Positions 2 through 15,501 of a DNA stretch of 20,000 nucleotides are shown here, one piece after another. This DNA comes from an uncultured virus (IMG/VR IMGVR_UViG_3300025708_000562) (Duplodnaviria; Heunggongvirae; Uroviricota; Caudoviricetes): IMG/VR virus record IMGVR_UViG_3300025708_000562, one strand, 5' to 3'. Each line of letters opens with the position of its first letter. Within the stretch, counting starts at the first letter, position 1. The notes under the pieces were generated by a model. The model searched no databases and was not told where the DNA came from. It worked only from the letters and a program-made list of their open reading frames with translations. Both the position numbers and the translations under genes were made by a program.

Positions 2-2065
2 GATAACCTAGAGGATGCTGGATATCACGACCCATTCTCGCAGCGTCAGATGCTTATGGAGCGCTACGGCATAAGTCGGGCTCTAGCAACGCAATTCGAG
101 CGCCGCGAAGAGCTGATGTTTGACCCCAGGGCCAATCTAGGCATGGTAGCCAACGCCTCGCAAGCCGCAGCGCAGACATCTAGAGCGCAAGCGATCAACG
201 AGCATAACATAATAATGCAAAGAGTAATCGGCCTAGGCAGGGCTGTTGATACCGGTGACGTCGGCGCAGGCCCCTATGACGCTAGACAAGAATTTATAAG
301 CAGATTGCTAGCGGGCGAAGACTGGGAGACCCTGGTACAAGAGGAGTCCTCTAATCCCGATAGCGCCATGTCGCGATACCTCAACGCTGACCTTCAGTCG
401 CTGCTTTCCGGCGGAAGAATGGGCGCCGATGCATTACAGGCTGTATTATCTCAAATGACCCCCGAGCAAAGAGCTATATACGGCCCTAGATTTGCTGACG
501 CTGCGACGACCAACCTGCGGCGGGGGAGGTTCTTAGGGCTGGCGCCCAGTATTTTTGAGCGCAGCGAAGTCGACTCGTCGGGGGGGGTGCTCACATCCGC
601 GTCCGTGCCAATGGCTATTGCACGCATCACGCCTGAGGATTTTGGCAATACAACCTTCAGATACAATTCCGATACGGGTTCTATAGAGGCGTCTTTCGGA
701 GCGGACTCTAATCGCCATTGGTGGGACGCCAGCAGGTACTCCTTCCGCAATCTAGACATAGATGTCGCCGGCTTTGCCGATGCCATGGATTGGGAAACTG
801 AAGACATCCTGGCCGCACAAAGCCGCGCAGATATCCTGTCTGGCGTAACTGACATGATGCCCACGCGCACGCAGATACTATACGGGCAAGCCTTCCAACG
901 GCGTGCGGGTTATGATTTAGGCGTCGGAGGACAAAGAGGCGCTGAGGCTATCCAGCGCGCGTATGATGTTTCATCGTATATAGCCTCTGCCCCCACAGCC
1001 GAGGAGGCTCGTACCTCACTAACTAGCGGGACAATGGGCTACAATGACGCCATGGATGAATGGTATTATTCTGTGCAAGACAAATACCGGCGTTCCGGCT
1101 TGAGCTTCACCGGCAACGCCAGCGATGCAACTGATGTTTATGATTTCACCAACAGGCTATCCGAAACGCTCTTCGGATATGACATGGCCAGCCCGCGCTT
1201 CACGCCGCAAGATCGCCAGAGGCTAGACTACTTTACATCAATAGTTTACCCCAGCATAGCCGGAGCGAGATCGGAGCAGCAGCGCGACGCGGAGGGCGAT
1301 CTGGGCTCAGCGCTTAGAACAGCCAGGGCGCGTACCGGCGGAGGCCTTACCGAAGAAGAGCTCAGAATGCGTAGCGCGGTGGGTTCGAGATACAATCTAT
1401 CAGAAGAAGAGTGGTCAACGGTTTCTGACATTATGATGATGTCCTATGCCGAGGGGATTAGCTTAGCGCAAGCCGCCGACAGGTTGGGAGTTGACGATCA
1501 GGATATACGCAACGCCACGGCGACAATCTTCGGCACGCGCGGCGCAGCACGCGGAGCGGTGATTGCTGCCGGGGAGAACTATGACATACAAATGGCTGGG
1601 GCGCAACAAGCCCTAGAACGCTTTAGTTATCTGTTCGACCCACATATAGGCGGGCGCAGCGTAACCATGGCGGAGGCGCTAAAGGCATACCGCAGAGGCG
1701 AAAATGTTGACTTTAGATACGCTGAAGGTTACGCCGACACGGACCTAGGGCGCCTGGCCAGCGCGGTGGTCACCACGGACACGCTAAGCGAAGAAACCCT
1801 AGCCAATTTAATCGCTGAAGATCAACGCAGGCGCGGCGTATCTAGCGCTGACGATAGAGAGACCGGCGGTGGGACCGGTGGGGCGGGCGAGGATTTCTCT
1901 ATCAGCACCGGCACCATGAACGTCACAGCGACCACCGTGGTTGTAAGCGAAGGCACCGGGGTGAGCAGCGGCGGAGCCAGCAATTCCCGCGAAACTGGTA
2001 CAGGGCTAACAACTGGATCCCCAGGGAGTTTCGGGCCATGGATGCGAGGGGGTGAGTCGGATTGA
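2..2065 (+). CDS. 5'-truncated large virion protein, probably the C-terminal part of a tail tape measure protein
   Basis: The frame is open from position 2 with no stop before the ATG at 50, so the gene likely starts upstream of the window. The protein is Ala/Arg/Gly-rich and helical-looking, with a Gly/Ser/Thr-rich end (ISTGTMNVTATTVVVSEG). It lies directly upstream of tail/baseplate genes. The product call rests on context and composition. Confidence 0.5.
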   Translation, partial: DNLEDAGYHDPFSQRQMLMERYGISRALATQFERREELMFDPRANLGMVANASQAAAQTSRAQAINEHNIIMQRVIGLGRAVDTGDVGAGPYDARQEFISRLLAGEDWETLVQEESSNPDSAMSRYLNADLQSLLSGGRMGADALQAVLSQMTPEQRAIYGPRFADAATTNLRRGRFLGLAPSIFERSEVDSSGGVLTSASVPMAIARITPEDFGNTTFRYNSDTGSIEASFGADSNRHWWDASRYSFRNLDIDVAGFADAMDWETEDILAAQSRADILSGVTDMMPTRTQILYGQAFQRRAGYDLGVGGQRGAEAIQRAYDVSSYIASAPTAEEARTSLTSGTMGYNDAMDEWYYSVQDKYRRSGLSFTGNASDATDVYDFTNRLSETLFGYDMASPRFTPQDRQRLDYFTSIVYPSIAGARSEQQRDAEGDLGSALRTARARTGGGLTEEELRMRSAVGSRYNLSEEEWSTVSDIMMMSYAEGISLAQAADRLGVDDQDIRNATATIFGTRGAARGAVIAAGENYDIQMAGAQQALERFSYLFDPHIGGRSVTMAEALKAYRRGENVDFRYAEGYADTDLGRLASAVVTTDTLSEETLANLIAEDQRRRGVSSADDRETGGGTGGAGEDFSISTGTMNVTATTVVVSEGTGVSSGGASNSRETGTGLTTGSPGSFGPWMRGGESD

Positions 2066-3408
2066 GTAGCATATTTAGTGGCAGCCCGATTGACGTGATG
2101 TTTCGCGAGCTCAGGCGACAGAACGGCAAAGACCCCATTGAATGCGCCCCCGAAGGGGACTCCTCGGGGGCCTCTTACGACGACATCTCTAGCTGGGGCA
2201 AGATTAGCGACTATATCGACCGCGAGTCGCACGCACGGGGGATAAACCCTAGCGCGTGGGAGCACGAATCAGCGCTAGCTGATAGCGTAGATTACAACGG
2301 GATGTGGAATGGCGCCCCACTATCAGAATGGATGACAGCCGCGGAGAATGCTGCGTCAAACGCTGAATTCGTTACACTGGGCTCCACCACCTTAAAATAC
2401 AGCACAGTGGACGACAGATTGCGCCAACTGCCATTCTTCGCTCAAGATGCCACGCTGCATTACTTACATCACAGGCCACGAGGAACGATCCAAAGCATAG
2501 CCACCGAGATATGCCAAAATGCCACGGCACAGTGGAATGCCGACCACCCTAATCATGTAATTCAGGGTCGGATGCTGAGGGGGCTCCCCTATCCAGTGTC
2601 ACGTTATACAGCCCTGCGCCAAGCCTACCTTGGAGACTCCTCGATAGGGGGAGGCGGGCGCGGTGGGGGAGGCACTACGCCGCTGCCATTCGTAGCTGGT
2701 GGACCGTGGGCGGAGACTGCCTTTAGGGGCAAGACCTTTGCCCTAGAGCCCGTCTTGAAAGCCGGCTTCGGCCCCGCGGTGCGGCCTGGTACGGGTGGGT
2801 ATATCGTAGACCATCCCCATCGGTATGCCACAATACACGTCATTGACATTGATGGCACTGTCAGATTTAGCACTACCGACTTTGCGTTGCAAAAGGTAGC
2901 CAAGCAGGTTGGGGAGAAATTCCAGATGATATCAACCTGGGACGGCCCGCAATTGGTGTTCCGCTGCGAGCGCGGCTCGATCTATCAACTCGGCTTCAGC
3001 ATGCTCAATACTAAAAATTTTGACTGGCTACGTGCGTTTCAAATGAACTGGACGCGCTACTTCCGCGGTAGCGCATTGGCATCACAGCAGAGCCGGCTCT
3101 ATGTACTATATGGCGCGACGCTATTAGGAGGCTATCCTACTGGGATGTCCATATCTGAATCAACAACGGCAGAGCCGCTAGCACAGTTGATGATACAGAT
3201 GTATATCACCGATGACGTTCCTCTGCCGGACATGACTATCATCAACGCCGCTACGGGAGAATACACCTGGGAGGGTGATACATTCGTAGTAGGCTCCGGA
3301 GTGAGCAACCTCGACGGCTATGTCAGGCAAGCCACGCCAACACCGGAGTCGATTAACGAGCCTTCTCCGCCGCAAATCCCCGCAGTGACCAATCCAGGCC
3401 TTGTGTAA
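2062..3408 (+). CDS. Putative tail/baseplate structural protein with a tube-initiator-like C-terminal domain
   Basis: 448-aa ORF whose TTG start overlaps the upstream stop. A Gly-rich linker (GGGGRGGGG) separates two domains. The beta-rich C-domain (FALQKV..EKFQ..TW..LNTKNFDW..NW.RYFRGS..LYVLY..GY) resembles proteins I recall following tape-measure genes in large myophages; not verified. Confidence 0.45.
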   Translation: MSSIFSGSPIDVMFRELRRQNGKDPIECAPEGDSSGASYDDISSWGKISDYIDRESHARGINPSAWEHESALADSVDYNGMWNGAPLSEWMTAAENAASNAEFVTLGSTTLKYSTVDDRLRQLPFFAQDATLHYLHHRPRGTIQSIATEICQNATAQWNADHPNHVIQGRMLRGLPYPVSRYTALRQAYLGDSSIGGGGRGGGGTTPLPFVAGGPWAETAFRGKTFALEPVLKAGFGPAVRPGTGGYIVDHPHRYATIHVIDIDGTVRFSTTDFALQKVAKQVGEKFQMISTWDGPQLVFRCERGSIYQLGFSMLNTKNFDWLRAFQMNWTRYFRGSALASQQSRLYVLYGATLLGGYPTGMSISESTTAEPLAQLMIQMYITDDVPLPDMTIINAATGEYTWEGDTFVVGSGVSNLDGYVRQATPTPESINEPSPPQIPAVTNPGLV

Positions 3409-3445
3409 AAAAGGGGGGCGCACCCATTGCCCCCCCTTATTTTTC
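3407..3445. terminator. Bidirectional intrinsic terminator
   Basis: Stem AAGGGGGGC (3411-3419) / GCCCCCCCTT (3429-3438) with an A-tract on the left and a T-tract on the right, between convergent stops at 3408 and 3446. Confidence 0.85.
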
Positions 3446-3976
3446 CTACTCGCTCACTATCATGAAGTGAGACGAGCTGGCGCTTATCAGCGCCGACGAC
3501 GTCGCTACGTGCTTTTTCCTGCCCTTCTGCGTGGTGCGGTCGAACTCCGCACCTGCCAGTATGACCTTTATCCCTAACCTGCGAACCATGCGCACAAGGG
3601 GGACCATGTCCTGATCCCCCGAGACCAGCACGATGGTGTTTGGCTTGTAGGTGAACACGTCGTGCATGATGTGTGCCGCGATCGCAACATCCACCCCACG
3701 CTCGCGAGCTTCGAGTCCGTTGGCTTCAATGGGGTAGAAGTGGATCTCGATCCCGCACTTACGAAGCTGATCCTCGTAAATGCGATCAGTATCAACCGCG
3801 CCGTGCTCTATGGCGCTGCGTGCAGGGAATCGACCCTGGAACAACGCCATGTATGCTGGAGTCTCGCCGATCTTGTCGAAGACCCCATTGAGTAGCTCCT
3901 CCAAACTCTTTCCCTTGTCCCGGTGGTATCCAACGATCTCCCACCAGAACCCTCCGTCGAGATACATGTATACCAT
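3446..3976 (-). CDS. NYN-domain (LabA/DUF88, PIN-like fold) putative ribonuclease
   Basis: Diagnostic motifs YLDGG, ERGVDVAIA and IVLVSGDQDMVPLV..VRRLGIKVIL, plus a C-terminal S..L..AS..F. The catalytic aspartates appear intact. Confidence 0.88.
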   Translation of the reverse strand: MVYMYLDGGFWWEIVGYHRDKGKSLEELLNGVFDKIGETPAYMALFQGRFPARSAIEHGAVDTDRIYEDQLRKCGIEIHFYPIEANGLEARERGVDVAIAAHIMHDVFTYKPNTIVLVSGDQDMVPLVRMVRRLGIKVILAGAEFDRTTQKGRKKHVATSSALISASSSHFMIVSE

Positions 3977-4003: not shown

Positions 4004-4011
4004 TTTATAAC
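4004..4011 (-). promoter_or_regulatory. GTTATAAA putative phage promoter element upstream of the NYN gene
   Basis: The same 8-mer occurs in intergenic DNA at 7208-7215 and 14637-14644, each upstream of a - strand unit. Confidence 0.4.
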
Positions 4012-4019
4012 TCAACCAG

Positions 4020-4415
4020 CTAGCCTTTGATCACCAACTCATAGCCATCCCTTCTAGCAGCATTAAGCAGTGCAGTAACACAGCTGCGGACTGTAGCCAC
4101 GGCAAATCGGTGAGAATGCATTGTGCCGTCTTCCACAATTGATACGCCAGGCGTCAACGCGCAGAAACAGCTCGTCATAAGGGGATAGTCCGCCGTGCTC
4201 AATATGGTGTATTCCGAGGGCCATGCGATGTAACGCACCCATCCCCGCCAAGGGGACCCGTATCGCACCCACCTATACAACCGGCTATCCATCACTAATT
4301 TGGCTATTGCAAGCCCCCCCCGCACCTCGCTCCACTTAGGCGGTATCTCCTCCACCTCCAGGATGTATTCCTTGCCTTCCTTGTGGAAGCCAACCACTAT
4401 TCGTTCACTCATCAT
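4020..4415 (-). CDS. Tandem paralog family, copy 9 (unknown function)
   Basis: MSERIVVGF..EEIPPKW..H-x7-RSCVTALLNAARRDGYELVI. GGAGG RBS; the start overlaps the end of the upstream copy. Confidence 0.85.
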   Translation of the reverse strand: MMSERIVVGFHKEGKEYILEVEEIPPKWSEVRGGLAIAKLVMDSRLYRWVRYGSPWRGWVRYIAWPSEYTILSTADYPLMTSCFCALTPGVSIVEDGTMHSHRFAVATVRSCVTALLNAARRDGYELVIKG

Positions 4416-4731
4416 AACCTCCTAGGATAACTAATTCACACCCCCAACTTCGAGTTGCATGGACTAGCGCTGTGACGAGGCGCCGCCTGGCGATTATCCC
4501 GCCTTCGTGGCCGCCACAAAGAAATCCCAGTTCACTCGGGCGAAGTGAGCATCTATTTTGCCCAAACCACCCAAACCTGTCACTAGATGATCTGCATAAC
4601 GTATAGCCACCGTAGCGCGGATAGTCGTTATCTATAATGTAGACAATTTCACGACCGTGCATCCAGCAGTCTGGCAACTCCTCCACCACCGCGTTAAGGC
4701 CCTCGATCCTGATTACAACCTTGTTACTCAT
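4405..4731 (-). CDS. Tandem paralog family, copy 8
   Basis: Start reassigned to MSNKVVIRI (ATG 4731, GAGGTGG RBS). Contains EELPDCW..H-x7-RRLVTALVHATRSWGCELVI. Confidence 0.8.
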   Translation of the reverse strand: MSNKVVIRIEGLNAVVEELPDCWMHGREIVYIIDNDYPRYGGYTLCRSSSDRFGWFGQNRCSLRPSELGFLCGGHEGGIIARRRLVTALVHATRSWGCELVILGGYDE

Positions 4732-4766
4732 CCGGCCACCTCTCGATATAATGCCTATATAAAACC

Positions 4767-5015
4767 TCATAGGTCCTTGCGGGCTCCACTTCCGTGGGCA
4801 GTACGCAGGAAATCCTCGCCAATATCCCCTGTGTCACTCGGCCGCAGGACTATATCATACTCCGGGATATCGCCGCCAAAGTCACACTGCCCCACGAGCT
4901 CATAGGCGGTGTCGAACACAGATGAAATCCGGTCGCGCCACGCCCTCGGCAGCTCTAACACGCGCCAGGCTAGCCTGTTTCCCCGCGAGCATCCGATCTC
5001 AATGCGCTCTTCCAT
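4767..5015 (-). pseudogene. Tandem paralog family, copy 7, apparently truncated or frameshifted
   Basis: Has the family N-terminus (MEERIEIG..LELPRAW) but stops after 82 aa at HGSGARKDL*, lacking the conserved C-terminal helix. Confidence 0.55.
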
Positions 5016-5017
5016 GG

Positions 5018-5335
5018 CTACCCCCTAAGCACAAATTCATAACCATCGCATCGGGCTATGTTCAACAACGCCGCAACGGCTCGGCGCGCGGCGAATATCA
5101 TCTCATTATGGGTACTAACTTGCAGGATATAGTATGCCTTGCCCAGCTGACTCTCCCTGACCGCCATAAAGCATGTATCCGTCCGCAGCTCCGGGCAACT
5201 GCACGTCTCTACGCTATATTTTCCATGGTTATCGCGTATGCGCCTTAAGCAGCGCGGCCTAAACCAACTCTCAGGCTGTTCGTGTACCACAAACTCTTTA
5301 TCGCACGCTCGTATGCTGATGACAATGCGCTCCAC
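5018..5335 (-). CDS. Tandem paralog family, copy 6
   Basis: GTG start at 5335 after AAGGAGG. ERIVISI..HEQPESW..CPELRTDTCF..H-x7-RRAVAALLNIARCDGYEFV. Confidence 0.85.
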   Translation of the reverse strand: MERIVISIRACDKEFVVHEQPESWFRPRCLRRIRDNHGKYSVETCSCPELRTDTCFMAVRESQLGKAYYILQVSTHNEMIFAARRAVAALLNIARCDGYEFVLRG

Positions 5336-5345
5336 CCCGTCCTCC

Positions 5346-5681
5346 TTAGGGAATAAGTCTGAACTCGTAACCATCTCGACGGGCTATGTTAAGCAACGCA
5401 GCGATAGCTCTGCGCGTATCACGCACAAATGCAGCGTGATCCTTGACGAAGGGGGAGTCGTACGGCCAGTCTAGCTGGCTTTTATAGGCTGCCACATAAC
5501 ACACGTTACCGCGCAACTCCGGGCAACCACTAACAAGCACCGTGTACTCGCCTCGCGCGTCTCGCGCCCGGCGTATTTCCCTAGCCCCGCCAGGCGGCGA
5601 TCGCCTGAACCAGCCCTTGGGTTGCTCGTATATCACAAACTGACGACCGCGCGATAGCATTTTAACGGAGATGCGCTCCAT
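5346..5681 (-). CDS. Tandem paralog family, copy 5
   Basis: GAGGAGG RBS. MERISV..YEQPKGW..CPELRGNVCY..H-x7-RRAIAALLNIARRDGYEFRLIP. Confidence 0.88.
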   Translation of the reverse strand: MERISVKMLSRGRQFVIYEQPKGWFRRSPPGGAREIRRARDARGEYTVLVSGCPELRGNVCYVAAYKSQLDWPYDSPFVKDHAAFVRDTRRAIAALLNIARRDGYEFRLIP

Positions 5682-5693
5682 TTGTCCTCCTCT

Positions 5694-6026
5694 CTACGGT
5701 ATAATCCTGAATTCATAACCGTTTTGGCGGGCTATGTTCACTAAGGCAGTAATAGCTCGCCGCAGGGCCTTCACCCACGCTTGATGCTCCCCGACGGTGG
5801 AATAGTCAAACTCCATACCCAGCTGGCCCTTGCTTCTGGCCACATAACACATATCAGGACGCAACTCTGGCCATTCACACACATATACATGATACATATA
5901 GCCCAGCATGTTGATGATACCTATCGTGATACCATCTTCCCTCCCCCTCCTGAACCAATTCTCGGGTTGCTTATGTATCGCGAACGCTCGACCGTGCTTT
6001 CTTATGCTAACGACGATGCTTTCCAT
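5694..6026 (-). CDS. Tandem paralog family, copy 4
   Basis: Start reassigned to ATG 6026 after AAGGAGG. MESIVVSI..HKQPENW..WPELRPDMCY..H-x7-RRAITALVNIARQNGYEFRIIP. Confidence 0.88.
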   Translation of the reverse strand: MESIVVSIRKHGRAFAIHKQPENWFRRGREDGITIGIINMLGYMYHVYVCEWPELRPDMCYVARSKGQLGMEFDYSTVGEHQAWVKALRRAITALVNIARQNGYEFRIIP

Positions 6027-6042
6027 CTGGTCCTCCTTGTTC

Positions 6043-6402
6043 TCAGCACTTGATGACGAAGTCATAACCCTTGGCGCGCGTAAGGTTGACCAGAACGGTG
6101 ACGGCACGCCTAACGGCGCGTACTTGCCACTCATGCGGCTCGCCAAGCATGTATCTGAACACCTCCGGCGACAGCACCTCGTAGCGTTCCGCAGCCAAGC
6201 GCAACGCGCGCACCCAAATGCCATAATTATCACCAATTCGGCCCGGGTATACGAAATACACCCCCGCGATGGCTTTCACATCTACTTCAAACCACCTGCG
6301 ACCGTAATCATGTCCGGCAAACCACGCCAGCGGCTGCTCAAGTATCGCGAATGTGTAGATATTTCCCTCTTTACGAAATCTCACGACCATTCTTTCAGCC
6401 AT
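6043..6402 (-). CDS. Tandem paralog family, copy 3
   Basis: Start reassigned to ATG 6402 after GGAGGAG. MAERMVVRF..LEQPLAW..H-x7-RRAVTVLVNLTRAKGYDFVI. Confidence 0.85.
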   Translation of the reverse strand: MAERMVVRFRKEGNIYTFAILEQPLAWFAGHDYGRRWFEVDVKAIAGVYFVYPGRIGDNYGIWVRALRLAAERYEVLSPEVFRYMLGEPHEWQVRAVRRAVTVLVNLTRAKGYDFVIKC

Positions 6403-6793
6403 ATTTATACTCCTCCCAAAGTTCAAACTCATGTCCATAGTGGCGAGTGGCGTTAACTAGAGCCGTTATAGCCCTCCTCATGGCAGCAACGGCAGAGGCG
6501 TGTCTTGTTATCCCGTCACTCATCACCCCATATATAGCTTGGTTGAGCTGGTCCTCTCTGTGGGCCAGGAAGAGCCCCCACAACATCACCCGGGGAGCGT
6601 GATTGTACGACTCAAATATCTTGTATATTCCCTCATCCTGGTGCGTCTCGAACCTTAGGGCTGATATTGTCCACAGGTCGCCTATCCTGAGCGGGCCTCT
6701 GGACCTAAACATCCATGACTCGGGTTGCTCATGTATAATGAGCCTGAATCTCCGCCCCTCTTTGCTGAAGCTAATCGCCATCTTCTGAGACAT
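6395..6793 (-). CDS. Tandem paralog family, copy 2
   Basis: Start reassigned to ATG 6793 after AAGGAGG. MSQKMAISF..HEQPESW..H-x7-RRAITALVNATRHYGHEF. Confidence 0.85.
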   Translation of the reverse strand: MSQKMAISFSKEGRRFRLIIHEQPESWMFRSRGPLRIGDLWTISALRFETHQDEGIYKIFESYNHAPRVMLWGLFLAHREDQLNQAIYGVMSDGITRHASAVAAMRRAITALVNATRHYGHEFELWEEYKYG

Positions 6794-7151
6794 GCTCCGC
6801 CTCCTTGTACTCTCTAATGACAAACTCATGTCCATCGCGGCGTGCAGCGTTGAATAAAGCCGTTATCGCTCTCCTTATGTTTCGCACTGTCTTCGCGTGC
6901 CCACCATACACCGGAGCATCGTAATGATCAAATTGATAGCGCCCGCTCGCCAAGAAGCAGTCATTACGGCTGATCGCGGGGCAATACATTACCTTCACTT
7001 CATACAGAAGAACATCATCTCCTGGCATCACTAGGGCAGCTATGACCATCTCGCGGGGCGGCGCAATCCCCCAATCTGACGGCTGGTCGTGTATCCGGAA
7101 GTCAAACTCAGACCCACGCCTTGTGAAGCTTACCTCTATCCTCTCTGGCAT
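6771..7151 (-). CDS. Tandem paralog family, copy 1
   Basis: AAGGA RBS. MPERIEVSF..HDQPSDW..CPAISRNDCF..H-x7-RRAITALFNAARRDGHEFVI. Confidence 0.88.
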   Translation of the reverse strand: MPERIEVSFTRRGSEFDFRIHDQPSDWGIAPPREMVIAALVMPGDDVLLYEVKVMYCPAISRNDCFLASGRYQFDHYDAPVYGGHAKTVRNIRRAITALFNAARRDGHEFVIREYKEAEHVSEDGD

Positions 7152-7207
7152 TCGTAGCGTCCTTTCTGTGGGATTACAACAAAAGAATGCAGACTTACTT
7201 CGCTGTT

Positions 7208-7215
7208 TTTATAAC
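7208..7215 (-). promoter_or_regulatory. GTTATAAA putative phage promoter element heading the paralog array
   Basis: Sits in the divergent intergenic gap, about 57 nt upstream of the copy 1 start. The same 8-mer occurs at 4004 and 14637. Confidence 0.4.
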
Positions 7216-7275
7216 TGCAAACCGATGATTTTGATCTCGCCCGAGGAGTATCATACTAAGACGGGAGGTAGCGCT

Positions 7276-7407
7276 ATGCCACTTGCAGATCCATCGTACA
7301 CATACAAGCACATTGACGTCCCCGCCGTGATTGACCATACGCCCATTACCGTAGAGTTTACGGCAACCGATGATCACTTCGTCGGCAGGCGGGGAGAGTT
7401 GGCTTAG
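7276..7407 (+). CDS. 43-aa hypothetical protein (MPLADPSY...GELA)
   Basis: GGGAGG RBS at 7263-7268 and ATG at 7276. The stop overlaps the GTG of the next gene. Confidence 0.55.
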   Translation: MPLADPSYTYKHIDVPAVIDHTPITVEFTATDDHFVGRRGELA

Positions 7408-9524
7408 TGTTAGGCATGATAGCCCGCAAACAACGCCCCATCGTATACGTTGAGGGTGTTCGCATGCCCGTAAGGCGTGTGACGTGTGATTTTGCCACTA
7501 ACGGCAAATCAGTCTTTCAGATAGTATTACCCCCAGATCCGCGCTGGATTAGCAAATGCATCATCAAGGCGGCTGACGGTTCTGAAAAAGACGAGGAGAC
7601 CGGATTGCCTATCAGGGCAACCTATACCCTATCTGGCATCCAGCCCAAAACGCTATTCCATGTCTTCGTTGAAGATGAAGCGCTGGGCGAAACGTCTTTT
7701 ATCGGCTCCGCAAGACTGTATTCGTATCAACTGGTCACTTCTAAAGAGGGCACTTTCCCCGTCATCGTGGCCGTAGGGTCTAATTACTTCATGCAAGAAG
7801 TCGCAACGTATATGATTGAGACATCCCGTGGCTTGTCAATGAGCAGCGAAAACTGGGGGAGCCGCAGCGGGACAAGTCAGACTAGCTCGATAGTCAGCAA
7901 GCTCAAGCAGCACGGACTAGCTCGCGGGATTAAGGAGCTTCTGCAAGACGCCGGCTTGAACTCTAATCAGGCCTGCAATCTGACATGGAAACTGCTCAAC
8001 TTAGACCACAGCATTGTCGTGCAGGACAACTCAAAGGCCATGGGGTATTTCGACGCCACTAAGCTGGGCGTATTGCTAGATAAAACCATAGGCGCATCAT
8101 CGAGTCGTCAGCCTATTGCCGCGATAGTGCTACACGTCATGAATCTCATTAGATACCTTGCCATTAACGTTCCAGCTCCGTCTTTTATCAACGCTAAGTA
8201 TGGCGGGATTGACGAGCCAGATGCGGAGTTTATCCCCACGGAAATGACCGCCCCCGAGGGGGGAGTGGGGTCGTTGTCTATTGATAACCCTGATGAGCTC
8301 ATCATGAATGACATGCTCTTCATGCCCCAAATGCCATTCGCGCCGCCACCGAGATGCAATGTGATTCTGCCCAGTCAATATGATACGCTGAGCCTCGGAG
8401 ATACTCCTACCCAACGGCCAACTCGAGGTATAGGCCGCATAGGCGGGACAGGCGCGTTAAGTGAAAACTATAACTCCAACGCCATCTATTTCCCGGAGGA
8501 TTTCCGAGAAGGGCTCAGGGCGCACGGGAAGCAGCACGCCACTCCGGAGGAGTGCTATCGCGGCATCGTAATGAGCGCATTGAGCTATAACCGGCCGGAG
8601 TACATCAAGGACATGGGCTCTGATTACGTCAAGGCCTTCAGTGCTCAGTCTTTCCTGGTTCAGGTTTACGCATCACGCTCCCTAGCCATAGGCAGTGGAG
8701 CGCATGGATGTCCGTTAAATCTTAAACCTGTCCCCGGATTTCCCGTGGCAGTACTCGCGCGCAATGGGTGTCACTATGTAGGATTCCTGGAGAGCATCCG
8801 GCATGTGCTAGATATTGACTCGGGGTGCTATACACTCTATCAGGCCATTACTAACGTCAGGCCTTATGACGAGCCCACGCCGGACTATGCTGGCGATACG
8901 TGGTTTGATGATATGTATAAGCCGGAAAATGTTGGGATATACGTTTACCCAGCCCTGCTGGGGAGATATCAAACCTCGCTAGAGTACATCAACACAGAAG
9001 AGCGGGATGACATGTCAATCCTCAAGCACCTCTACAACGACCCCGAGATGACCGAGGCTGAGGTTAAGGCGGCTAAGCAGGACAAGTATGCTATCAAGAA
9101 CGCCATCGACCTGCTGTGGGATGAGTATTCCGGATGTGAGTATCCCGAGATTTACGCCTACAACTACGGCAAGCGCATCACGCAGAGCGTTAAGCAAGTC
9201 ATGGTTGACTTCCACGGAGCGGATATGTCTAGCGACGAGTTCATCGCCTCGGGTGGTTACTCGCTAAAAACTAATAGTGTCACCCTGCGCAACATGGAAG
9301 AGCTAGGGCTAGAGGTTGGCGCTACTATTCCTAATGACGCACGCATTGCCGGGGCGTTTTGCAAAGAGCGCCAGGAATGCTACACTGAAATAGCGGCTAA
9401 CATGTACTTCGGCATTAACATTGCACGCGGGCCAACGGAGGCTTTAGACCTGCTAGTCTCCCCAGAAGACCTGGAGGTTAATCCGCTAACACGCCTCAAT
9501 CCCGATATCTTAGGTGGAGAGTGA
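7407..9524 (+). CDS. Putative baseplate hub / tail protein (T4 gp27 / P2 gpD-like)
   Basis: 705-aa ORF with a beta-rich N-terminus (IVYVEGVRMPV..FQIVLPP). The segment PVPGFPVAVL...YVGFLESIRHVLD matches the PG..V.i...G....v.H pattern of hub proteins. It lies between tube-initiator-like and wedge genes. The start may be the ATG at 7416. Confidence 0.55.
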   Translation: MLGMIARKQRPIVYVEGVRMPVRRVTCDFATNGKSVFQIVLPPDPRWISKCIIKAADGSEKDEETGLPIRATYTLSGIQPKTLFHVFVEDEALGETSFIGSARLYSYQLVTSKEGTFPVIVAVGSNYFMQEVATYMIETSRGLSMSSENWGSRSGTSQTSSIVSKLKQHGLARGIKELLQDAGLNSNQACNLTWKLLNLDHSIVVQDNSKAMGYFDATKLGVLLDKTIGASSSRQPIAAIVLHVMNLIRYLAINVPAPSFINAKYGGIDEPDAEFIPTEMTAPEGGVGSLSIDNPDELIMNDMLFMPQMPFAPPPRCNVILPSQYDTLSLGDTPTQRPTRGIGRIGGTGALSENYNSNAIYFPEDFREGLRAHGKQHATPEECYRGIVMSALSYNRPEYIKDMGSDYVKAFSAQSFLVQVYASRSLAIGSGAHGCPLNLKPVPGFPVAVLARNGCHYVGFLESIRHVLDIDSGCYTLYQAITNVRPYDEPTPDYAGDTWFDDMYKPENVGIYVYPALLGRYQTSLEYINTEERDDMSILKHLYNDPEMTEAEVKAAKQDKYAIKNAIDLLWDEYSGCEYPEIYAYNYGKRITQSVKQVMVDFHGADMSSDEFIASGGYSLKTNSVTLRNMEELGLEVGATIPNDARIAGAFCKERQECYTEIAANMYFGINIARGPTEALDLLVSPEDLEVNPLTRLNPDILGGE

Positions 9525-9525
9525 C

Positions 9526-10485
9526 ATGGATAAGAAGAGTTTCGTCGATGCTTTAGTCAAGCGCGGATTCCGCGGTCGGCGCGGAGTTATCTCAGGAGAA
9601 ATAGTCCGGCCCATTGCTGAAGCGCTTTACGATAGGTTGACCAAAACGGCGGCAGACTATGACGATGACGACTTGCTAGACGAGCCCGACGAGCCCGTTC
9701 CCGGCCTAGACATGCCTGAGCTTAATATGGACCTAGACGACGACTTAATGCCGGATATGCCCATCGAAGAGCCCGCCGGAGCGCCGGCGAGCCTGCACGA
9801 GCGTCAGCTTGAGCTATGGCGTCAATGGCAGAAGACGGGCAATGACCAATACGTGGAAGACCTGCTCGACTCCCTGACTCCACTCTTCAAGCACGTATTG
9901 AATAAATATACACAATACCCCATCCCGTACAATATACTGATGCATAAAAGCATGATGCTGGCGCGGGATGCTCTGGGTAAGTATGACCCGACTAAGTCCA
10001 AGCTGAGCACGTATGTGATGAATCAAATCCGGCCGCTGGACAGGTTCGTCAAGCAGTATCAAAACGTCTCCTATGTCCCCGAGTTTCTCTCTAAGGAGTT
10101 CGGGCGCTATGAGGCGGCACAGCAAGCTTTGGCCGACAATCTCGGGCGTACGCCAAATGATGCCGAAATGGCCGAGTATATGAAAATGCCGCTTAATCAT
10201 ATCCAGCGTATCCGGGCGGCTAAGACGCAATCCATGCTAGCTTCTAGCAATGTCTCCGAACACGAAGAGCAGTTTATAGATAACGCGCGCTCTAAGCTAG
10301 ACGACAGGGCCATCTATCTGCGCTCTCAGCTAGAGGGCAAGGAGCGGCAGGCTTTCGATAAGCTATTCTCGCATCGCGGCGGACACCTTCTCGCCGAAGA
10401 CCTGGCTAAAGACCTAGGCGTTACCGCCGCTGATATTTACGCATGGCGGCGCAGGTGGACTAGAGCTCTGTCCGGAGTACAGTAA
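9526..10485 (+). CDS. Phage-encoded sigma70-family RNA polymerase sigma factor with acidic N-terminal extension
   Basis: Region 2-like EDLL..ALGKYDPTKSKLSTYV, region 3-like LGRTPNDAEMAEYMKM and region 4-like LEGKERQ..EDLAKDLGVT. Start is ATG 9526 (GGAG RBS) or GTG 9514. Confidence 0.8.
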   Translation: MDKKSFVDALVKRGFRGRRGVISGEIVRPIAEALYDRLTKTAADYDDDDLLDEPDEPVPGLDMPELNMDLDDDLMPDMPIEEPAGAPASLHERQLELWRQWQKTGNDQYVEDLLDSLTPLFKHVLNKYTQYPIPYNILMHKSMMLARDALGKYDPTKSKLSTYVMNQIRPLDRFVKQYQNVSYVPEFLSKEFGRYEAAQQALADNLGRTPNDAEMAEYMKMPLNHIQRIRAAKTQSMLASSNVSEHEEQFIDNARSKLDDRAIYLRSQLEGKERQAFDKLFSHRGGHLLAEDLAKDLGVTAADIYAWRRRWTRALSGVQ

Positions 10486-12320: not shown

Positions 12321-12787
12321 AAGACATATCAGTTCTAAAATACCATGAAGCCGACGATGACACGATAGCCAAGCTGGGGACTAAGGCCTATCGTTGCGAG
12401 ATAGCCTTCGGCGATGAGTTATGTTACGGCCCGAGGGGTTACGCCTTGCTGGTGCAGATCGTATTCGTCGAGTTGATGAAGACTAAAGGGCGTGACGTGA
12501 TCAACGATGACGGGGGAGGATTGCTGCAACTACTAGGCATGTCTCCGCTTGATACGGGAGAAGGCTCGCCCAACGTATACGTCGACCGTGCCGTCAAGGC
12601 TGTTGAGCAGCAAATCATAGCACGCCAACTCGGCAAGGGCTATCCAAAGGACGAGTTGCTGCAATCACTCACGCTTCATGACAGTATCTATTTCGACAGT
12701 AAAACCGGGCAATGGATTATCCCGGTAATTATAAAATCTGTCGCCGGCGAGGCCAGCTTGTGGCAAATGCCCATTGGAGGATCATGA
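12317..12787 (+). CDS. Baseplate wedge subunit, T4 gp25 / P2 gpW-like
   Basis: G..LLVQ....LMKTKG.D.....GGGL..LLG pattern, about 156 aa, immediately upstream of a baseplate-J-like gene. ATGA overlap gives the start at 12317. Confidence 0.65.
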   Translation: MKDISVLKYHEADDDTIAKLGTKAYRCEIAFGDELCYGPRGYALLVQIVFVELMKTKGRDVINDDGGGLLQLLGMSPLDTGEGSPNVYVDRAVKAVEQQIIARQLGKGYPKDELLQSLTLHDSIYFDSKTGQWIIPVIIKSVAGEASLWQMPIGGS

Positions 12788-13911
12788 AATACGATGCAAT
12801 CCTAAATTACGCCACGCGATATGCACAGGAGTATTTCCCTAATGTTGCATTCCGCGAGGGCACTGGCGCGTATGATTTGCTCATCAAGGCGTTCTGTATC
12901 CTGGCGTATGACTTATTCAGCAAACTATCGCGGCATCTAGGCAATTACGCCGTGTCCAATTGGGTTGATCTGCCTGACAGCCTGGTAGACGCCTATGCTA
13001 GTATTTGGCTGCTATCACGCTCTCCGGGAGGGATCGCTACCGGCCGGGTGCGCATCTACTTCAGCGAGCCCACGGCGGTGTCCATCCCGGTCGGCTTTAG
13101 AGTTCTATCCAATAATGGCTTGAGATTCGTCGCCGATAACGAGTACTCCTTCAGCGAAAACCGCATGCGCAGTCAGCGCGAGGGCAGCCGCTATTACTGT
13201 GACATCACCGTTGTGGCTGAAGCTTCTGGTGAAGAGTACAATGTCGGCGTGGGGGCTATTACTGATATCGAGAGCGCATTCTACGCGCCATGGACTAGCA
13301 TCACTAATCAACACGCCTTTACTCAGGGGGTTAAAAGAGAAGACAACGCCGCATTCGGCAGACGCATTACCGAGTCGGTCAATACCCGCCAGCTTATCAT
13401 CACCGCTGCTAGCGCAGAGACCACGCTGAGAGACGCGCTGCCCACGATTCTCGAGATAGACGTCGTCGGTTTTGGCGATCCAGCAATGCAGCGTGACCTT
13501 ATGCATGAAGTCATGCCAGGCTCGGGACTGCCATATGTCAGGGTTGACTTCGCACGCAAGACACGCGGCAACAGTCTATACAACCCTAGCGAGGCTTACT
13601 TCGGATCGCTGCTAGCATCATCCGATGGCCTGCCAAATCCGAAAGACCTAGTCGAAGGGTTGGAGGAGGCGGATCAAGAAAACTACTCAGCGCTAGGCGT
13701 GGAGGATCTAGTCCTTGCCACTGCACATGGCGGGGAGATCATCTTCGATGGATTTGACTCCAACAAGGCTAGCTTCGACCCCGGCAAATGGATATGGACT
13801 GATAGCGGCCAGCCCTATGGGCAGAAGATATACGGCAACAGCATTTACATCACACGCGAGGGCAAGCTCCGCCTAGGAGCTGAAGACTGGAAGAGGGCGA
13901 CGATATCATGA
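12784..13911 (+). CDS. Baseplate J / gp47-like wedge protein
   Basis: Classic motifs R.PG..ATGRVRIYF...VSIPVG and VVAEASGEEYNV..GAIT...ITN..AFTQG..REDN..F..RI. Start at ATG 12784 (GGAGG RBS, ATGA overlap). Confidence 0.85.
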   Translation: MKYDAILNYATRYAQEYFPNVAFREGTGAYDLLIKAFCILAYDLFSKLSRHLGNYAVSNWVDLPDSLVDAYASIWLLSRSPGGIATGRVRIYFSEPTAVSIPVGFRVLSNNGLRFVADNEYSFSENRMRSQREGSRYYCDITVVAEASGEEYNVGVGAITDIESAFYAPWTSITNQHAFTQGVKREDNAAFGRRITESVNTRQLIITAASAETTLRDALPTILEIDVVGFGDPAMQRDLMHEVMPGSGLPYVRVDFARKTRGNSLYNPSEAYFGSLLASSDGLPNPKDLVEGLEEADQENYSALGVEDLVLATAHGGEIIFDGFDSNKASFDPGKWIWTDSGQPYGQKIYGNSIYITREGKLRLGAEDWKRATIS

Positions 13912-14630: not shown

Positions 14631-14675
14631 ATTATATTTATAACACAAGCACGGTATGGTTTAGTAAAAAATACA
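14631..14675 (-). promoter_or_regulatory. AT-rich promoter for the candidate ncRNA
   Basis: The - strand reads TGTTATAAATATAAT, containing TATAAT (14631-14636), the T4-late-type TATAAATA (14635-14642) and GTTATAAA, in an otherwise GC-rich region. Confidence 0.6.
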
Positions 14676-14684: not shown

Positions 14685-14797
14685 GGGGCCGGCCGACACC
14701 TTGTCAGCCAGCCCCGAGATTAGCCCGCGTGGCAGCGCGGGCCATGGAGAGTGCAAGGGCTTGCAAAGAACCAGAGCCCCCACGGGTTGGTTCTTTT
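14685..14797 (-). other. Cluster of four hairpins 3' of the 14807-15325 gene (terminator, processing element or ncRNA extension)
   Basis: - strand GGGGCUGGCUGACA-AGG-UGUCGGCCGGCCCC (14 bp with two U-G pairs), plus GCCCGCG/CGCGGGC, UGCAA/UUGCA and AAAGAACCA/UGGUUCUUU stems. Confidence 0.55.
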
Positions 14798-14806
14798 AAA
14801 AGCCAC

Positions 14807-15325
14807 TCAGTCCGATATCTCTTCATCGTCTAGCTCGCCCAGGTGGCGCGCTATTTCCCACGATAGCATCCGCATCTCATGGCTGCCGTAACGCTCAAGC
14901 TCGCGGTAGCGTTCCCCGCAAGTTGGGATCAGCTCGTGCGTCCTAGGCTCGTAGTAGTACTTCCGAAACCAACCACGCGACATGCGGTCCTGCTCACGCG
15001 ACACGCTTAAGCCGTAGAATGGGAACCACGTTCCCGGCATGCCGCTGTTGTACCCTGACGACTTGTAGAACGGCTGGCGCCAATGCTCATCGCTGCTAAC
15101 ACTAGTCAACAGCAATACGCGCATGGGGCGCTCAGCTACCGTTATGGTGTCACGAGAGATATCCACGCGGACAACATAGCGCTGCTCGCGGTCGTTGTGC
15201 TCTGGAAATACCAGCAGCTTATCATGTACAAGCGGCTCCCAATCATGCGGCTCACCGAATAGCCATGAGTTAATAGCCTCGGTGTGCGTATCCCAGGAGC
15301 CATCTGCTTCAAGAGGGTTGGACAT
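14807..15325 (-). CDS. Hypothetical protein with PFYKSSGYNSGMPGTWFPFYG motif
   Basis: ATG 15325 after GGAGGGAG; 172 aa; conserved-looking aromatic/Gly motif. Confidence 0.75.
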   Translation of the reverse strand: MSNPLEADGSWDTHTEAINSWLFGEPHDWEPLVHDKLLVFPEHNDREQRYVVRVDISRDTITVAERPMRVLLLTSVSSDEHWRQPFYKSSGYNSGMPGTWFPFYGLSVSREQDRMSRGWFRKYYYEPRTHELIPTCGERYRELERYGSHEMRMLSWEIARHLGELDDEEISD

Positions 15326-15330
15326 GTTCT

Positions 15331-15501
15331 TCACTCCCTCCGGCACGAGAAGTCGTCTCCCGCCCCATCGCCCAATCTCCAGTCAGGCTTGATAGGCACA
15401 ATCTGTATTGGGTTCTGCAGGGGGAATGCTTCAGCACGCTTGATGCGATCCGTCACGCGAGCGTGAGTATCCCGTGCTATGCCTTCATTGCGGTCTGTCA
15501 T
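15331..15501 (-). CDS. 56-aa hypothetical protein (MTDRNEGIARD...FSCRRE), not in the ORF track
   Basis: GGAGGTG RBS, ATG 15501 and TGA at 15331-15333. Fills the gap between its neighbours. Confidence 0.65.
   Translation of the reverse strand: MTDRNEGIARDTHARVTDRIKRAEAFPLQNPIQIVPIKPDWRLGDGAGDDFSCRRE

What the first reader, a model, noticed from the sequence alone, without database searches (positions are those of the whole stretch)
4020..7151. Array of nine tandem paralogous small genes with constant ends and a hypervariable centre
Seen: nine head-to-tail - strand ORFs of about 82-132 aa, nearly all with a clear RBS and with overlapping or near-abutting ends. All have an N-terminal beta-like segment (MxERIxV-like) and P-x2-W (QPSDW, QPESW, QPLAW, QPENW, QPKGW, QPESW, LPRAW, LPDCW, IPPKW). 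Eight share an exactly spaced H-x7-R followed by [RS]-x-[IV]-x-x-L-x-[NH]-x-[AT]-R-x2-G-[YHC]-[ED]-[FL]. The centre differs greatly in length and sequence. I recognise no known family. Inference: a constant scaffold with a variable surface suggests a diversified binder repertoire, such as anti-defence proteins, immunity proteins, or sensors/specificity subunits for the adjacent nuclease.
Basis: partly seen in the sequence, partly recalled or inferred. Interest (0 to 1): 0.88.

Follow-up and report, generated by a model that had tools for sequence, protein, structure and literature searches.

The report
Orphan small-protein gene family array, phage
A large uncultured wastewater phage carries a row of nine diverged copies of a small protein of unknown family, with a constant core and variable surface parts, whose copy number changes between near-identical phages, as in genes caught in a virus-host arms race.

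Summary
Window 4020-7151 (- strand) holds nine tightly packed paralogous genes (82-132 aa, 23-44% identity), each with a strong ribosome-binding site. They share a conserved N-terminal hairpin, P-x2-W, and an H-x7-R...G[YHC][ED][FL] helix-strand; copy 7 lacks the C-terminal part. The window belongs to a novel ~140-kb phage. Pfam, PHROGs, NCBIfam, PADLOC and PDB sequences give no hit. A profile search of 1.84 billion representatives finds 19 proteins. Copy 5 folds confidently (pLDDT 91.8), but no solved structure reaches Z 5. The nearest phage record has copy 0, which the window has lost, leaving a 3' remnant. That record lacks copies 2-3, a cassette bounded by a repeated Shine-Dalgarno-region 9-mer. 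It also has a second four-copy array and further ORFs sharing the C-terminal module. Orthologues show omega 0.25-0.73, and changes sit in the same two segments that vary between paralogues. A TTGnGTTATAAA promoter-like motif precedes the array, the NYN gene and the other arrays. Most likely (0.4) this is a diversified binder repertoire for host takeover or counter-defence. A link to the neighbouring NYN nuclease is neither shown nor excluded. Function is inferred, not shown.

The parts
7208..7236 (-). Promoter-like site of the array: ATCAAA box (7235-7230), then TTGCA-GTTATAAA (7220-7208)
   Evidence: GTTATAAA occurs 3 times in the window against 0.33 expected; 1 of 200 shuffles reaches 3. In G001 the same extended motif precedes array 1, NYN, the operon with array 2, array 3 and the recombination gene block. 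The sequence was read. Function as a promoter is inferred.
7152..7183 (-). 3' remnant of a lost tenth copy (c0); now the 5' leader of c1
   Evidence: It translates to FVVIPQKGRYECQR, matching the C-terminus of G001 c0 (FVIIPHRKGSYECQRG). G001 has 361 more bases here.
6771..7151 (-). c1, 126 aa
   Evidence: Orthologue in G001 is 90.7% nt identical, omega 0.31.
6395..6793 (-). c2, 132 aa; absent from G001
6043..6402 (-). c3, 119 aa; absent from G001
   Evidence: HMM E 2.3e-20.
5694..6026 (-). c4, 110 aa
   Evidence: Omega 0.25 against G001.
5346..5681 (-). c5, 111 aa; the copy folded with confidence
   Evidence: AF2 pLDDT 91.8, pTM 0.85. 82% nt identity to the G001 orthologue, omega 0.73, with changes clustered in aa 28-52 and 67-87.
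5018..5335 (-). c6, 105 aa from a GTG start behind AAGGAGG
4767..5015 (-). c7, 82 aa; truncated copy without the C-terminal helix-strand
   Evidence: It is identical in G001, L013 and L014.
4405..4731 (-). c8, 108 aa
   Evidence: HMM E 2.2e-08.
4020..4415 (-). c9, 131 aa
   Evidence: HMM E 1.5e-15.
4004..4011 (-). Second GTTATAAA promoter-like box, between the c9 stop and the NYN start
   Evidence: RNA-library contigs of two studies end at 3983 and 3986, a weak hint only.
3446..3976 (-). NYN-domain (PIN-like) nuclease gene, 176 aa; last gene of the - strand block
   Evidence: Pfam NYN E 4e-16, 60.3 bits against a cut-off of 24.2. PADLOC HEC-09 3.5e-07 and NYN 1.9e-05.
3407..3435 (.). G+C-rich hairpin with a T-run on both strands: terminator-like site closing the block
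   Evidence: + strand. One search shows the hairpin followed by TTTTTT on the - strand.

Best explanation
Array 1 is a lineage-specific multigene family of a novel ~140-kb tailed phage. Each gene makes a small soluble protein. The core is predicted as an N-terminal beta-hairpin, further strands, and a long C-terminal helix followed by a last strand. This core is kept constant. A beta-hairpin (aa 28-52 of c5) and the loop before the helix (aa 67-81) differ in length, sequence and charge from copy to copy. The family grows and shrinks by tandem duplication, cassette loss and recombination between the repeated Shine-Dalgarno and conserved-end sequences. The array appears to be transcribed from a phage-specific promoter class, which it shares with the recombination genes and the other arrays, not from the promoters of the neighbouring virion genes. 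I infer that the copies act as a repertoire of binders. Each variable face would recognise a different host (or rival-element) target, for host takeover or counter-defence. SHOWN here: paralogy, gene structure, orphan status, the confident fold model, where variation sits, the copy-number changes and their breakpoints, purifying selection, and the shared motif. INFERRED: promoter function, expression class, binding, and the conflict role.
For: Paralogy and gene structure. Real genes under purifying selection: omega 0.31 (c1) and 0.25 (c4) at dS 0.15-0.20 against G001. Constant core and variable faces: AF2 model pLDDT 91.8. Mean group-conservation is 0.59, 0.53 and 0.67 in the core segments against 0.34 and 0.40 in aa 28-52 and 67-81, and insertions fall in the variable segments. 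pI ranges from 4.7 to 10.2 among the copies. Orthologue divergence repeats the pattern: in c5, 10 of 25 and 11 of 21 residues are identical in the two variable segments, against 13 of 14 and 23 of 24 in the core, with omega 0.73. Birth and death: c2-c3 are absent from G001, with breakpoints in a repeated ACAAGGAGG; c0 is lost in the window, leaving a remnant. G001 has a second four-copy array (hhalign 97%, E 7.7e-11). Six outside members are on record with the same longest-contig length of 5,035 bp. c4/c5/c6 and four members of the other phage each group together (supports 85/91 and 85/68). Accessory context: the array lies between genes with hypervariable patches. Array 2 lies beside six tRNA genes. 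Shared TTGnGTTATAAA motif. Such hypervariable paralogue arrays are known in large phages (passages of PMC7824862; abstract of PMC13096335).
Against: No partner, target or phenotype is known; nothing here shows binding. c6-c9 and NYN are 99.4-100% identical between window and G001, and array 2 is stable (~98%, the same four copies). Not all of the family is fast-changing, and part of the divergence of c1, c4 and c5 is ordinary mosaic recombination that also affects flanking genes. Conserved polar residues (E-Q, W, H, R, R) could mark a common ligand or catalytic site instead of a mere scaffold. The tree is poorly resolved (2 of 21 inner branches well supported). Only c5 was folded with confidence; the c1 model reached pLDDT 60.5. 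No anti-defence library was available to test against.
Confidence: 0.4

Rival explanations
1. The copies are partners of the adjacent NYN RNase. They would be either inhibitors (antitoxin- or immunity-like, as in VapB-VapC or immunity arrays of polymorphic toxins) or exchangeable specificity adaptors whose constant part docks on NYN.
For: They are co-directional and adjacent, with 43 nt between the c9 stop and the NYN start, and one terminator closes the block. NYN is a PIN-like nuclease domain. c6-c9 and NYN are conserved together between relatives. A weak language-model lead to an immunity family (Imm74 on 18% of one cluster, score 0.85, below the 0.9 bar).
Against: NYN has its own GTTATAAA promoter-like box and no Shine-Dalgarno coupling to c9. 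Array 2 and the scattered members have no NYN or other recognised nuclease beside them. No Pfam immunity or antitoxin family matches. The nuclease lies downstream of nine copies, not upstream as in polymorphic-toxin loci.
Confidence: 0.15
2. The copies are virion-associated: packaged or ejected proteins, or accessory tail or baseplate parts. The conserved ends would serve as an incorporation signal, as the capsid-targeting sequence does for T4 internal proteins.
For: The array lies between baseplate-J-containing and probable fibre-like, hypervariable genes. The design is conserved termini with variable bodies.
Against: The array is on the opposite strand to the virion genes. Its promoter-like motif is shared with recombination genes and not seen before the neighbouring virion genes. 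The conserved ends are predicted to be core strands and a helix of the fold, not a detachable tag. Array 2 lies among replication and recombination genes.
Confidence: 0.12
3. The copies are nucleic-acid-binding or RNA-polymerase/sigma-associated regulators of the phage's own transcription system. The conserved arginine-rich helix would be the common contact.
For: The phage encodes a fused beta-beta' RNA polymerase and two sigma-like proteins. The conserved H-x7-[QR]R helix module is shared by about 18 ORFs. Array 3 is divergent from the RNA polymerase gene. A ~35-copy zinc-ribbon expansion in phage G was interpreted as transcription factors or DNA-binding proteins (PMC7824862, passage seen).
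Against: pI ranges from 4.7 to 10.2, unlike a uniform nucleic-acid binder. No known DNA- or RNA-binding domain is detected. No fold match to such proteins reaches Z 5.
Confidence: 0.12
4. The family is a highly diverged relative of the small Prp/DUF464 cysteine-protease fold, either an enzyme or a dead-enzyme decoy.
For: Prp-family chains recur among the best structural rows, aligned nearly end to end: 2g0i Z 3.7, 2idl 3.6, 1s12 3.2 and 4peo 3.2; 4peo_B 3.9, 7kld 3.5 and 7jvs 3.5. That the structural-genomics entries belong to the Prp family is recalled, not from a call. H is invariant and one C nearly invariant in array 1.
Against: All Z values are under 5, with rmsd 3.2-4.4 A over 55-75 residues. 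The Pfam Peptidase_Prp model finds none of the nine (E up to 0.1) and nothing in G001, while it rings in 3 control genomes. The Cys is not kept in array 2.
Confidence: 0.05

Closest known systems
Lineage-specific paralogue expansions in large phages (e.g. ~35 copies of a zinc ribbon in Bacillus phage G; PMC7824862, passage seen)
   Same: Many diverged copies of one small domain in a single large phage genome; function unknown; seen as adaptations for conflict or regulation.
   Different: The fold is unrelated (beta-sheet plus C-terminal helix, no zinc ribbon). Here the copies are in tight operon-like arrays, with cassette-level gain and loss between near-identical phages.
Segmental amplification of anti-defence loci in T-even phages (PMC13096335; abstract and outline seen) and poxvirus 'gene accordions' / ASFV multigene families (recalled, no call)
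   Same: Tandem copy-number change of virus genes as an adaptation to host immunity; copy number differs between close isolates.
   Different: Those amplifications are recent and near-identical, or belong to eukaryotic viruses. Here the copies are old (23-44% identity) and each has diverged.
T4-type internal proteins with a capsid-targeting sequence (recalled, no call)
   Same: A row of small phage genes with a constant terminal segment and variable bodies, some of which block host restriction.
   Different: There the constant part is a short cleaved N-terminal tag. Here both ends are conserved and are predicted to be core elements of the fold. Packaging is untested.
Immunity-gene arrays of polymorphic toxin systems (PMC3482391; search listing and start of abstract only) and VapBC-type toxin-antitoxin pairs (recalled)
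   Same: Small diversified paralogues in tandem next to a nuclease gene; a PIN-like nuclease as the last gene.
   Different: The nuclease is a 176-aa single-domain phage protein without a delivery domain. It lies downstream with its own promoter-like site. No immunity or antitoxin family matches, and other arrays of the family lack a nuclease.
Prp / DUF464 (Pfam PF04327 Peptidase_Prp)
   Same: About 100-110 aa; an N-terminal beta-hairpin and a C-terminal helix-strand in the same order; recurrent best structural rows (Z 3.2-3.9).
   Different: No sequence-profile match. The centre of the fold differs. The catalytic dyad (recalled) is not matched by conserved residues across the family.

Membership tests
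Any curated protein family (Pfam-A, PHROGs v4, NCBIfam 20, PADLOC 2.0, PDB sequences) | Profile match at or above the family threshold | tested here: not met
   0 families for 8 of 9 copies in Pfam. c2 has one sub-threshold row (Cel124_C, 17 bits against a cut-off of 27). 0 of 9 in PHROGs, PADLOC and NCBIfam. PDB profile search: best E 0.013 over 20 residues.
Prp / DUF464 (PF04327) | Match to the Peptidase_Prp profile | tested here: not met
   None of the nine at E up to 0.1. No match in G001 at E up to 0.01, while the model rings in 3 of 14 control genomes.
Prp / DUF464 (PF04327) | Shared fold | tested here: inconclusive
   Best rows Z 3.2-3.9, rmsd 3.2-4.4 A, 55-75 residues aligned. No chain reaches Z 5.
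Prp / DUF464 (PF04327) | Catalytic His-Cys dyad (recalled) | tested here: inconclusive
   H is invariant and one C nearly invariant in array 1, but in the reverse order along the chain, and the C is absent from array 2. No residue-level structural superposition was available.
Polymorphic-toxin immunity array | Immunity genes follow a toxin gene that carries a delivery or N-terminal trafficking domain | tested here: not met
   NYN is 176 aa with a single domain. It lies downstream of the array and has its own promoter-like box.
Polymorphic-toxin immunity array | Match to a known Imm family | tested here: not met
   No Pfam hit. There is only a sub-threshold language-model lead (Imm74 on 18% of one cluster, score 0.85), and none for c4.
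Type II toxin-antitoxin (VapBC-like) | Antitoxin with a DNA-binding domain directly upstream of, and usually translationally coupled to, a PIN-like toxin | tested here: inconclusive
   c9 lies upstream of NYN. However, there is a 43-nt gap, a separate promoter-like box, no recognisable RHH/AbrB/HTH domain, and no Shine-Dalgarno site before NYN. Toxicity was not tested.
DGR-diversified variable proteins | Adenine-specific substitutions in the variable region | tested here: not met
   Of 61 differences in c5 between window and G001, most are G/A and C/T transitions in both directions (29 G-A/A-G, 12 C-T/T-C). There is no A-specific pattern.
DGR-diversified variable proteins | Nearby reverse transcriptase and template repeat | tested here: inconclusive
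   No reverse-transcriptase family appears among the PHROG hits of 145 of the 208 called G001 proteins (those of 100 aa or more that lie inside one fetched locus). No dedicated search for template repeats was run.
T4-type internal proteins | Cleavable capsid-targeting sequence and presence in the virion | not testable with these tools
   This needs virion proteomics. The conserved N-terminus is predicted as strands 1-2 of the fold.
Known anti-defence families (Acr, Ocr, Tad, Gad and the like) | Match to a curated anti-defence profile | not testable with these tools
   No anti-defence library was at hand. Pfam and PHROGs, which hold some of these families, gave nothing.
NYN domain (PF01936), neighbour gene only | Profile match above the gathering score | tested here: met
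   E 4e-16, 60.3 bits against a cut-off of 24.2, covering profile positions 49-132 of 145. The N-terminal catalytic Asp was judged only by eye (YLDGG), which is inference.

The most novel reading that the evidence does not exclude
The shared C-terminal H-x7-(Q/R)R helix-strand is a docking module that plugs about 18 different small proteins of this phage (arrays 1 and 2, the scattered ORFs, perhaps array 3) into one common hub. The hub could be the phage's fused beta-beta' RNA polymerase/sigma system or the NYN RNase. The arrays would then be a swappable library of specificity subunits, whose cassettes are exchanged through the repeated Shine-Dalgarno and conserved-end sequences. That would be a modular, protein-based targeting repertoire in a phage, built on a fold with no solved relative.
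Probability: 0.12. Interest if true: 0.8.

Novelty: new member of a known kind. Interest (0 to 1): 0.5.

Why it matters
Rows of diverged small paralogues whose number changes between near-identical viruses are a hallmark of genes in direct conflict with the host. Very few such phage families have a known target. This family is new at the sequence level: 19 hits among 1.84 billion representatives. With a confident model, it has no solved structure at Z 5 or more. It makes up about 9% of the genes of an abundant, widely distributed wastewater phage, so it offers a compact scaffold with natural variable faces to test for counter-defence or host-takeover activities. The cassette breakpoints in repeated ribosome-binding-site sequence also give a concrete mechanism for how such arrays are reshuffled.

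Tried and rejected
1. Complex prediction of NYN with c5 (alignment A2): no verdict (score 0.15 against a mark of 0.32; controls not run). It counts neither for nor against binding.

2. Fold searches found no usable match:
- Foldseek against the PDB: 0 matches at E <= 0.001, best 0.39.
- BFVD: 0 at E <= 0.001; the best hits are uncharacterised phage proteins at E 0.095-0.11.
- VIA-align wide: 0 of 48,161 chains at Z >= 5, best 3.9.
- Second look at Foldseek's list: 0 of 565 at Z >= 5.
- Several weak rows are PH-like domains (1h10, 3ulb, 8gvl, 4ioy); I did not pursue them.

3. ESM Atlas: no score of 0.9 or more for c5 and no usable named hit for c4.

4. Phage GenBank collection: no megablast match for the window and no tblastn match for c1.

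5. Locus scans:
- Viral contigs hold only G001, plus one 54.7-kb contig with array 2.
- The metagenome scan gave one 54-kb contig with the same nine copies, one 5-kb fragment, and G001 again.
- The genome scan returned no locus.
- The DNA of the other phage's 5,035-bp contig could not be fetched, so its array structure is inferred only from the shared longest-contig length.

6. Fused forms: none among 7,999 longer candidates, which is weak evidence.

7. Array 3 (G001 118,682-121,038): hhalign probability is 3% against array 1 and 48% against array 2, over the C-terminal helix only. The iterated C-terminal HMM recruits one of its members below E 0.01 and leaves a second at 0.039. Membership is left open.

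8. DGR was rejected because there is no A-bias.

9. Rfam and tRNA: nothing in the window.

10. RNA evidence:
- Contigs from 4 of 4 metatranscriptome runs, identical to the window, cover NYN and pieces of the array. Contigs from RNA libraries do not prove transcription, and no DNA run or silent stretch was laid beside them.
- Window 7180-7262 is not covered by the listed contigs of X15, X16 and X17, and the contig ends at 3983/3986 are suggestive at most.
- X17's end carries adapter-like loose letters.

11. Earlier findings of this scan: none for this genome or sequence.

Full report
OBSERVATION. The nine head-to-tail - strand ORFs exist at the stated coordinates. I placed the starts at the conserved MxERI motif. 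With these starts every copy has a GGAGG-type Shine-Dalgarno site at the right distance (9 of 9), and junctions range from a 23-nt overlap to a 35-nt gap. The copies are c1 6771-7151, c2 6395-6793, c3 6043-6402, c4 5694-6026, c5 5346-5681, c6 5018-5335 (GTG start), c7 4767-5015, c8 4405-4731 and c9 4020-4415.

The MAFFT alignment gives 23-44% identity to c1. The invariant residues are P and W of P-x2-W, a Tyr, the His, and one Arg of the C-terminal motif. c7 stops before it, and no frameshifted remnant is visible.

The similarity is far beyond chance. A family HMM built without c3, c8 and c9 finds them at E 2.3e-20, 2.2e-08 and 1.5e-15.

WHERE IT LIES. The window is phage DNA:
- a Baseplate_J protein (12712-13911) and a sigma-like protein (9514-10485) are on the + strand;
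- a NYN-domain nuclease (3446-3976, Pfam E 4e-16) directly follows the array on the - strand.

The window's own assembly is not held. The nearest record, G001, is a complete 139,828-bp virus genome with direct terminal repeats.

My crude gene call of G001 gives 208 ORFs. I scanned 145 of them against PHROGs: those of 100 aa or more that do not cross a locus boundary. Most have no match. Those that do include a large terminase, a major-head-like protein, ligase, thymidylate synthase, endolysin, several IS605/TnpB-type transposases, and a 2,037-aa protein with both Rpb2 and Rpb1 domains, that is a fused beta-beta' RNA polymerase.

The GenBank phage collection has no match to the window or to c1. 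The stretch is held by 20 of the 24 listed public runs from 16 studies, all labelled activated sludge, wastewater, digester or bio-electrode metagenomes.

ORPHAN STATUS. None of the nine matches Pfam, PHROGs, NCBIfam or PADLOC. The one exception is a sub-threshold row for c2. A profile against all PDB sequences gives nothing better than E 0.013 over 20 residues.

An exhaustive HMMER profile search of 1.84 billion representative proteins returns only 19 proteins at E <= 0.001. Eight of them are near-copies of the window's own proteins and one is a 42-aa fragment of c9, as I read from the sequences.

FOLD. With only the nine paralogues as alignment, c1 folds poorly (pLDDT 60.5). With 15 family members, c5 folds confidently (pLDDT 91.8, pTM 0.85). 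The order of elements is beta1-beta2 hairpin, the QPxxW turn, four more strands, a long helix (82-103) and a last strand. Both models agree on the ends.

No library gives a convincing relative:
- Foldseek finds 0 PDB and 0 BFVD matches at E <= 0.001.
- VIA-align finds 0 of 48,161 representative chains at Z >= 5, best 3.9.
- A second look at Foldseek's list finds 0 of 565.

The only recurring theme is the small Prp/DUF464 protease family: 2g0i, 2idl, 1s12, 4peo and 7kld/7jvs at Z 3.2-3.9, aligned nearly end to end. That the structural-genomics entries belong to this family is recalled, not from a call. The Pfam Peptidase_Prp model finds nothing among the copies or in G001, although it rings in three control genomes. 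I keep this as a weak lead.

WHERE VARIATION SITS. I mapped a 24-member alignment onto the c5 model.
- Core segments are conserved: aa 1-27, 53-66 and 82-111 have mean group-conservation 0.59, 0.53 and 0.67.
- The beta3-beta4 hairpin (28-52) and the loop before the helix (67-81) are not: 0.34 and 0.40. These take the insertions.
- pI ranges from 4.7 to 10.2 among the nine.

The same pattern appears between orthologues. c5 of the window and of G001 differ at 61 of 336 bases. Residue identity is 10 of 25 and 11 of 21 in the variable segments, against 13 of 14 and 23 of 24 in the core. The last 24 codons differ at only 1 of 72 bases, so synonymous sites are also identical. This marks a recombination boundary rather than selection alone. 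The substitution spectrum is not adenine-specific, so a diversity-generating retroelement is not the source.

dN/dS between window and G001 is 0.31 (c1), 0.25 (c4) and 0.73 (c5). c6-c9 and NYN are 99.4-100% identical. The genes are therefore real and constrained, and only the promoter-proximal half of the array is in flux.

COPY-NUMBER DYNAMICS. G001 lacks window 6035-6799, which is exactly c2 plus c3. It has 361 extra bases upstream of c1 that encode a further copy, c0.

The c2-c3 cassette is bounded on both sides by the same ACAAGGAGG, the Shine-Dalgarno regions of c2 and c4.

The window still carries the last codons of c0 (FVVIPQKGRYECQR against FVIIPHRKGSYECQRG) as the leader of c1. So c0 was lost by deletion in the window's lineage.

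A 54-kb metagenome contig has the same nine copies as the window, and a 5-kb fragment has c4-c9.

THE FAMILY IS LARGER THAN THE ARRAY. G001 holds a second tandem array of four full-length, more divergent copies at 66,598-68,070. It is homologous over the whole length (hhalign 97%, E 7.7e-11). It is stable in a second viral contig: the same four copies at about 98% identity.

An HMM of the C-terminal helix-strand alone, iterated, finds 21-22 ORFs at E < 0.01 against 0 in a reversed-sequence control. Besides the 12 full copies, these include ORFs at about 73.5, 74.3, 75.2, 77.2, 100.3 and 100.6 kb, and the first gene of a third row of seven small genes (118.7-121.0 kb) that lies divergent from the RNA polymerase gene. 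ORFs added to the seed set in earlier rounds match by construction in later rounds.

For the rest of that third row the evidence is inconclusive (hhalign 3% and 48%).

Six tRNA genes lie beside array 2.

Six outside members (P0010-P0012, P0014-P0016; 35-48% identical to P0014) are all on record with a longest contig of 5,035 bp, and P0009 and P0017 with one of 1,005 bp. I infer arrays in at least one other, divergent phage, but I could not fetch that DNA.

The tree is poorly resolved: 2 of 21 inner branches are well supported. It groups c4/c5/c6, four members of the other phage, and array 2 separately, as expected for local duplication.

TRANSCRIPTION UNIT. An 8-mer, GTTATAAA, occurs 13 times in G001. 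Eleven of these are on the + strand, and most lie within 100 nt upstream of a + strand gene. The extended consensus is (AA-rich box)-N11-TTGnGTTATAAA.

It precedes array 1, the NYN gene, the operon that contains array 2, array 3, and the exonuclease/Sak4-like recombination block.

In the window it occurs 3 times against 0.33 expected; 1 of 200 shuffles reaches 3. One site is upstream of c1 (7208-7215), one lies between c9 and NYN (4004-4011), and one is at 14,637.

A second class, TTGAC-N16-19-TATA[CA]T, looks like a host sigma-70 promoter. It precedes the IS transposases and the RNA polymerase block.

The NYN stop codon is followed by a G+C-rich hairpin with a T-run on both strands.

I infer a unit of the form promoter, c1-c9, internal promoter, NYN, terminator. 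It would belong to a phage-specific, non-virion expression class. None of this is shown experimentally.

Contigs from 4 of 4 metatranscriptome runs, identical to the window, cover NYN and parts of the array. Such contigs do not prove transcription.

INTERPRETATION. The shown facts fit a lineage-specific multigene family with a constant core and two variable faces. It evolves by birth and death and by recombination, and it sits in accessory, mosaic parts of a large phage genome.

This is the known signature of virus genes engaged with variable host factors. Paralogue expansions in jumbo phages are described in PMC7824862 (passages seen). Amplification of anti-defence loci is described in PMC13096335 (abstract seen). 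Two earlier, unchecked notes of this scan describe similar arrays in jumbo coliphages.

I therefore commit, at 0.4, to a repertoire of small binders used for host takeover or counter-defence. The rivals are:
- partners of the NYN nuclease (0.15);
- packaged or virion-associated proteins (0.12);
- regulators tied to the phage's own transcription system (0.12);
- a diverged Prp-like enzyme or decoy (0.05).

The NYN-c5 complex prediction gave no verdict and is not used.

NOVELTY AND SCORE. The kind (a diversified paralogue array in a large phage) is known. The family, its fold and its extent in this phage, about 18 of roughly 200 genes, are new. No function is demonstrated. Interest is 0.5.

Noticed in passing
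G001 112448-118561 (- strand), outside the window: A single 2,037-aa ORF carries RNA_pol_Rpb2_6 (E 6.3e-49) followed by Rpb1 domains 1, 2 and 5. This is a fused bacterial-type beta-beta' RNA polymerase in a 140-kb phage that also encodes two sigma-like proteins (one in the window at 9514-10485).
   Followed up: partly
window 7208-7215, 4004-4011, 14637-14644 (- strand); G001 genome-wide: There are two promoter-like classes. TTGnGTTATAAA lies before the arrays, NYN and the recombination genes. A sigma-70-like TTGAC-N16-19-TATA[CA]T lies before the IS transposases and the RNA polymerase block. This suggests a host-to-phage polymerase or sigma switch.
   Followed up: partly
window 50-3408 (+ strand; 671/687-aa and 448-aa ORFs): Both large genes next to NYN have hypervariable patches between near-identical phages: residues ~154-229 and 631-661 of the first, and 11-204 of the second. 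Against contig L013 the changes are almost all non-synonymous (17 non-synonymous against 0-1 synonymous), with indels. They may be receptor-binding or other conflict proteins. No family matches, apart from one sub-threshold Sigma70_r4_2 row (19.8 bits against a cut-off of 25.7) for the 687-aa ORF.
   Followed up: partly
window 14095/14096; G001 27408-29053: G001 carries a 1.6-kb insertion with an IS605/TnpB-type transposase gene (PHROG 506, E 1.2e-146) that the window lacks. G001 has at least four such genes. Window 14797-15920 is also replaced relative to G001.
   Followed up: partly
G001 69355-69578, 72626-72883 and 136001-136076: Six tRNA genes (Pro-tgg, Leu-tag, Leu-caa, Leu-taa, Lys-ttt, Gln-ttg). 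Five lie in the accessory region beside array 2 and the scattered family members.
   Followed up: no
window 7269-7407 (+ strand): A small + strand ORF with a GGGAGG site lies just upstream of the 705-aa gene; its G001 counterpart was called as a 60-aa ORF. RNA-library contigs of three runs begin at 7263-7278, near its start.
   Followed up: no
G001 118682-121038 (+ strand): Seven tandem small genes share P-x2-W-IPR near the N-terminus and H-x7-QR-x-L-x-A-L-x-L-x2-W-R at the C-terminus. This may be a third, very remote branch of the family lacking the first hairpin and the last strand.
   Followed up: partly
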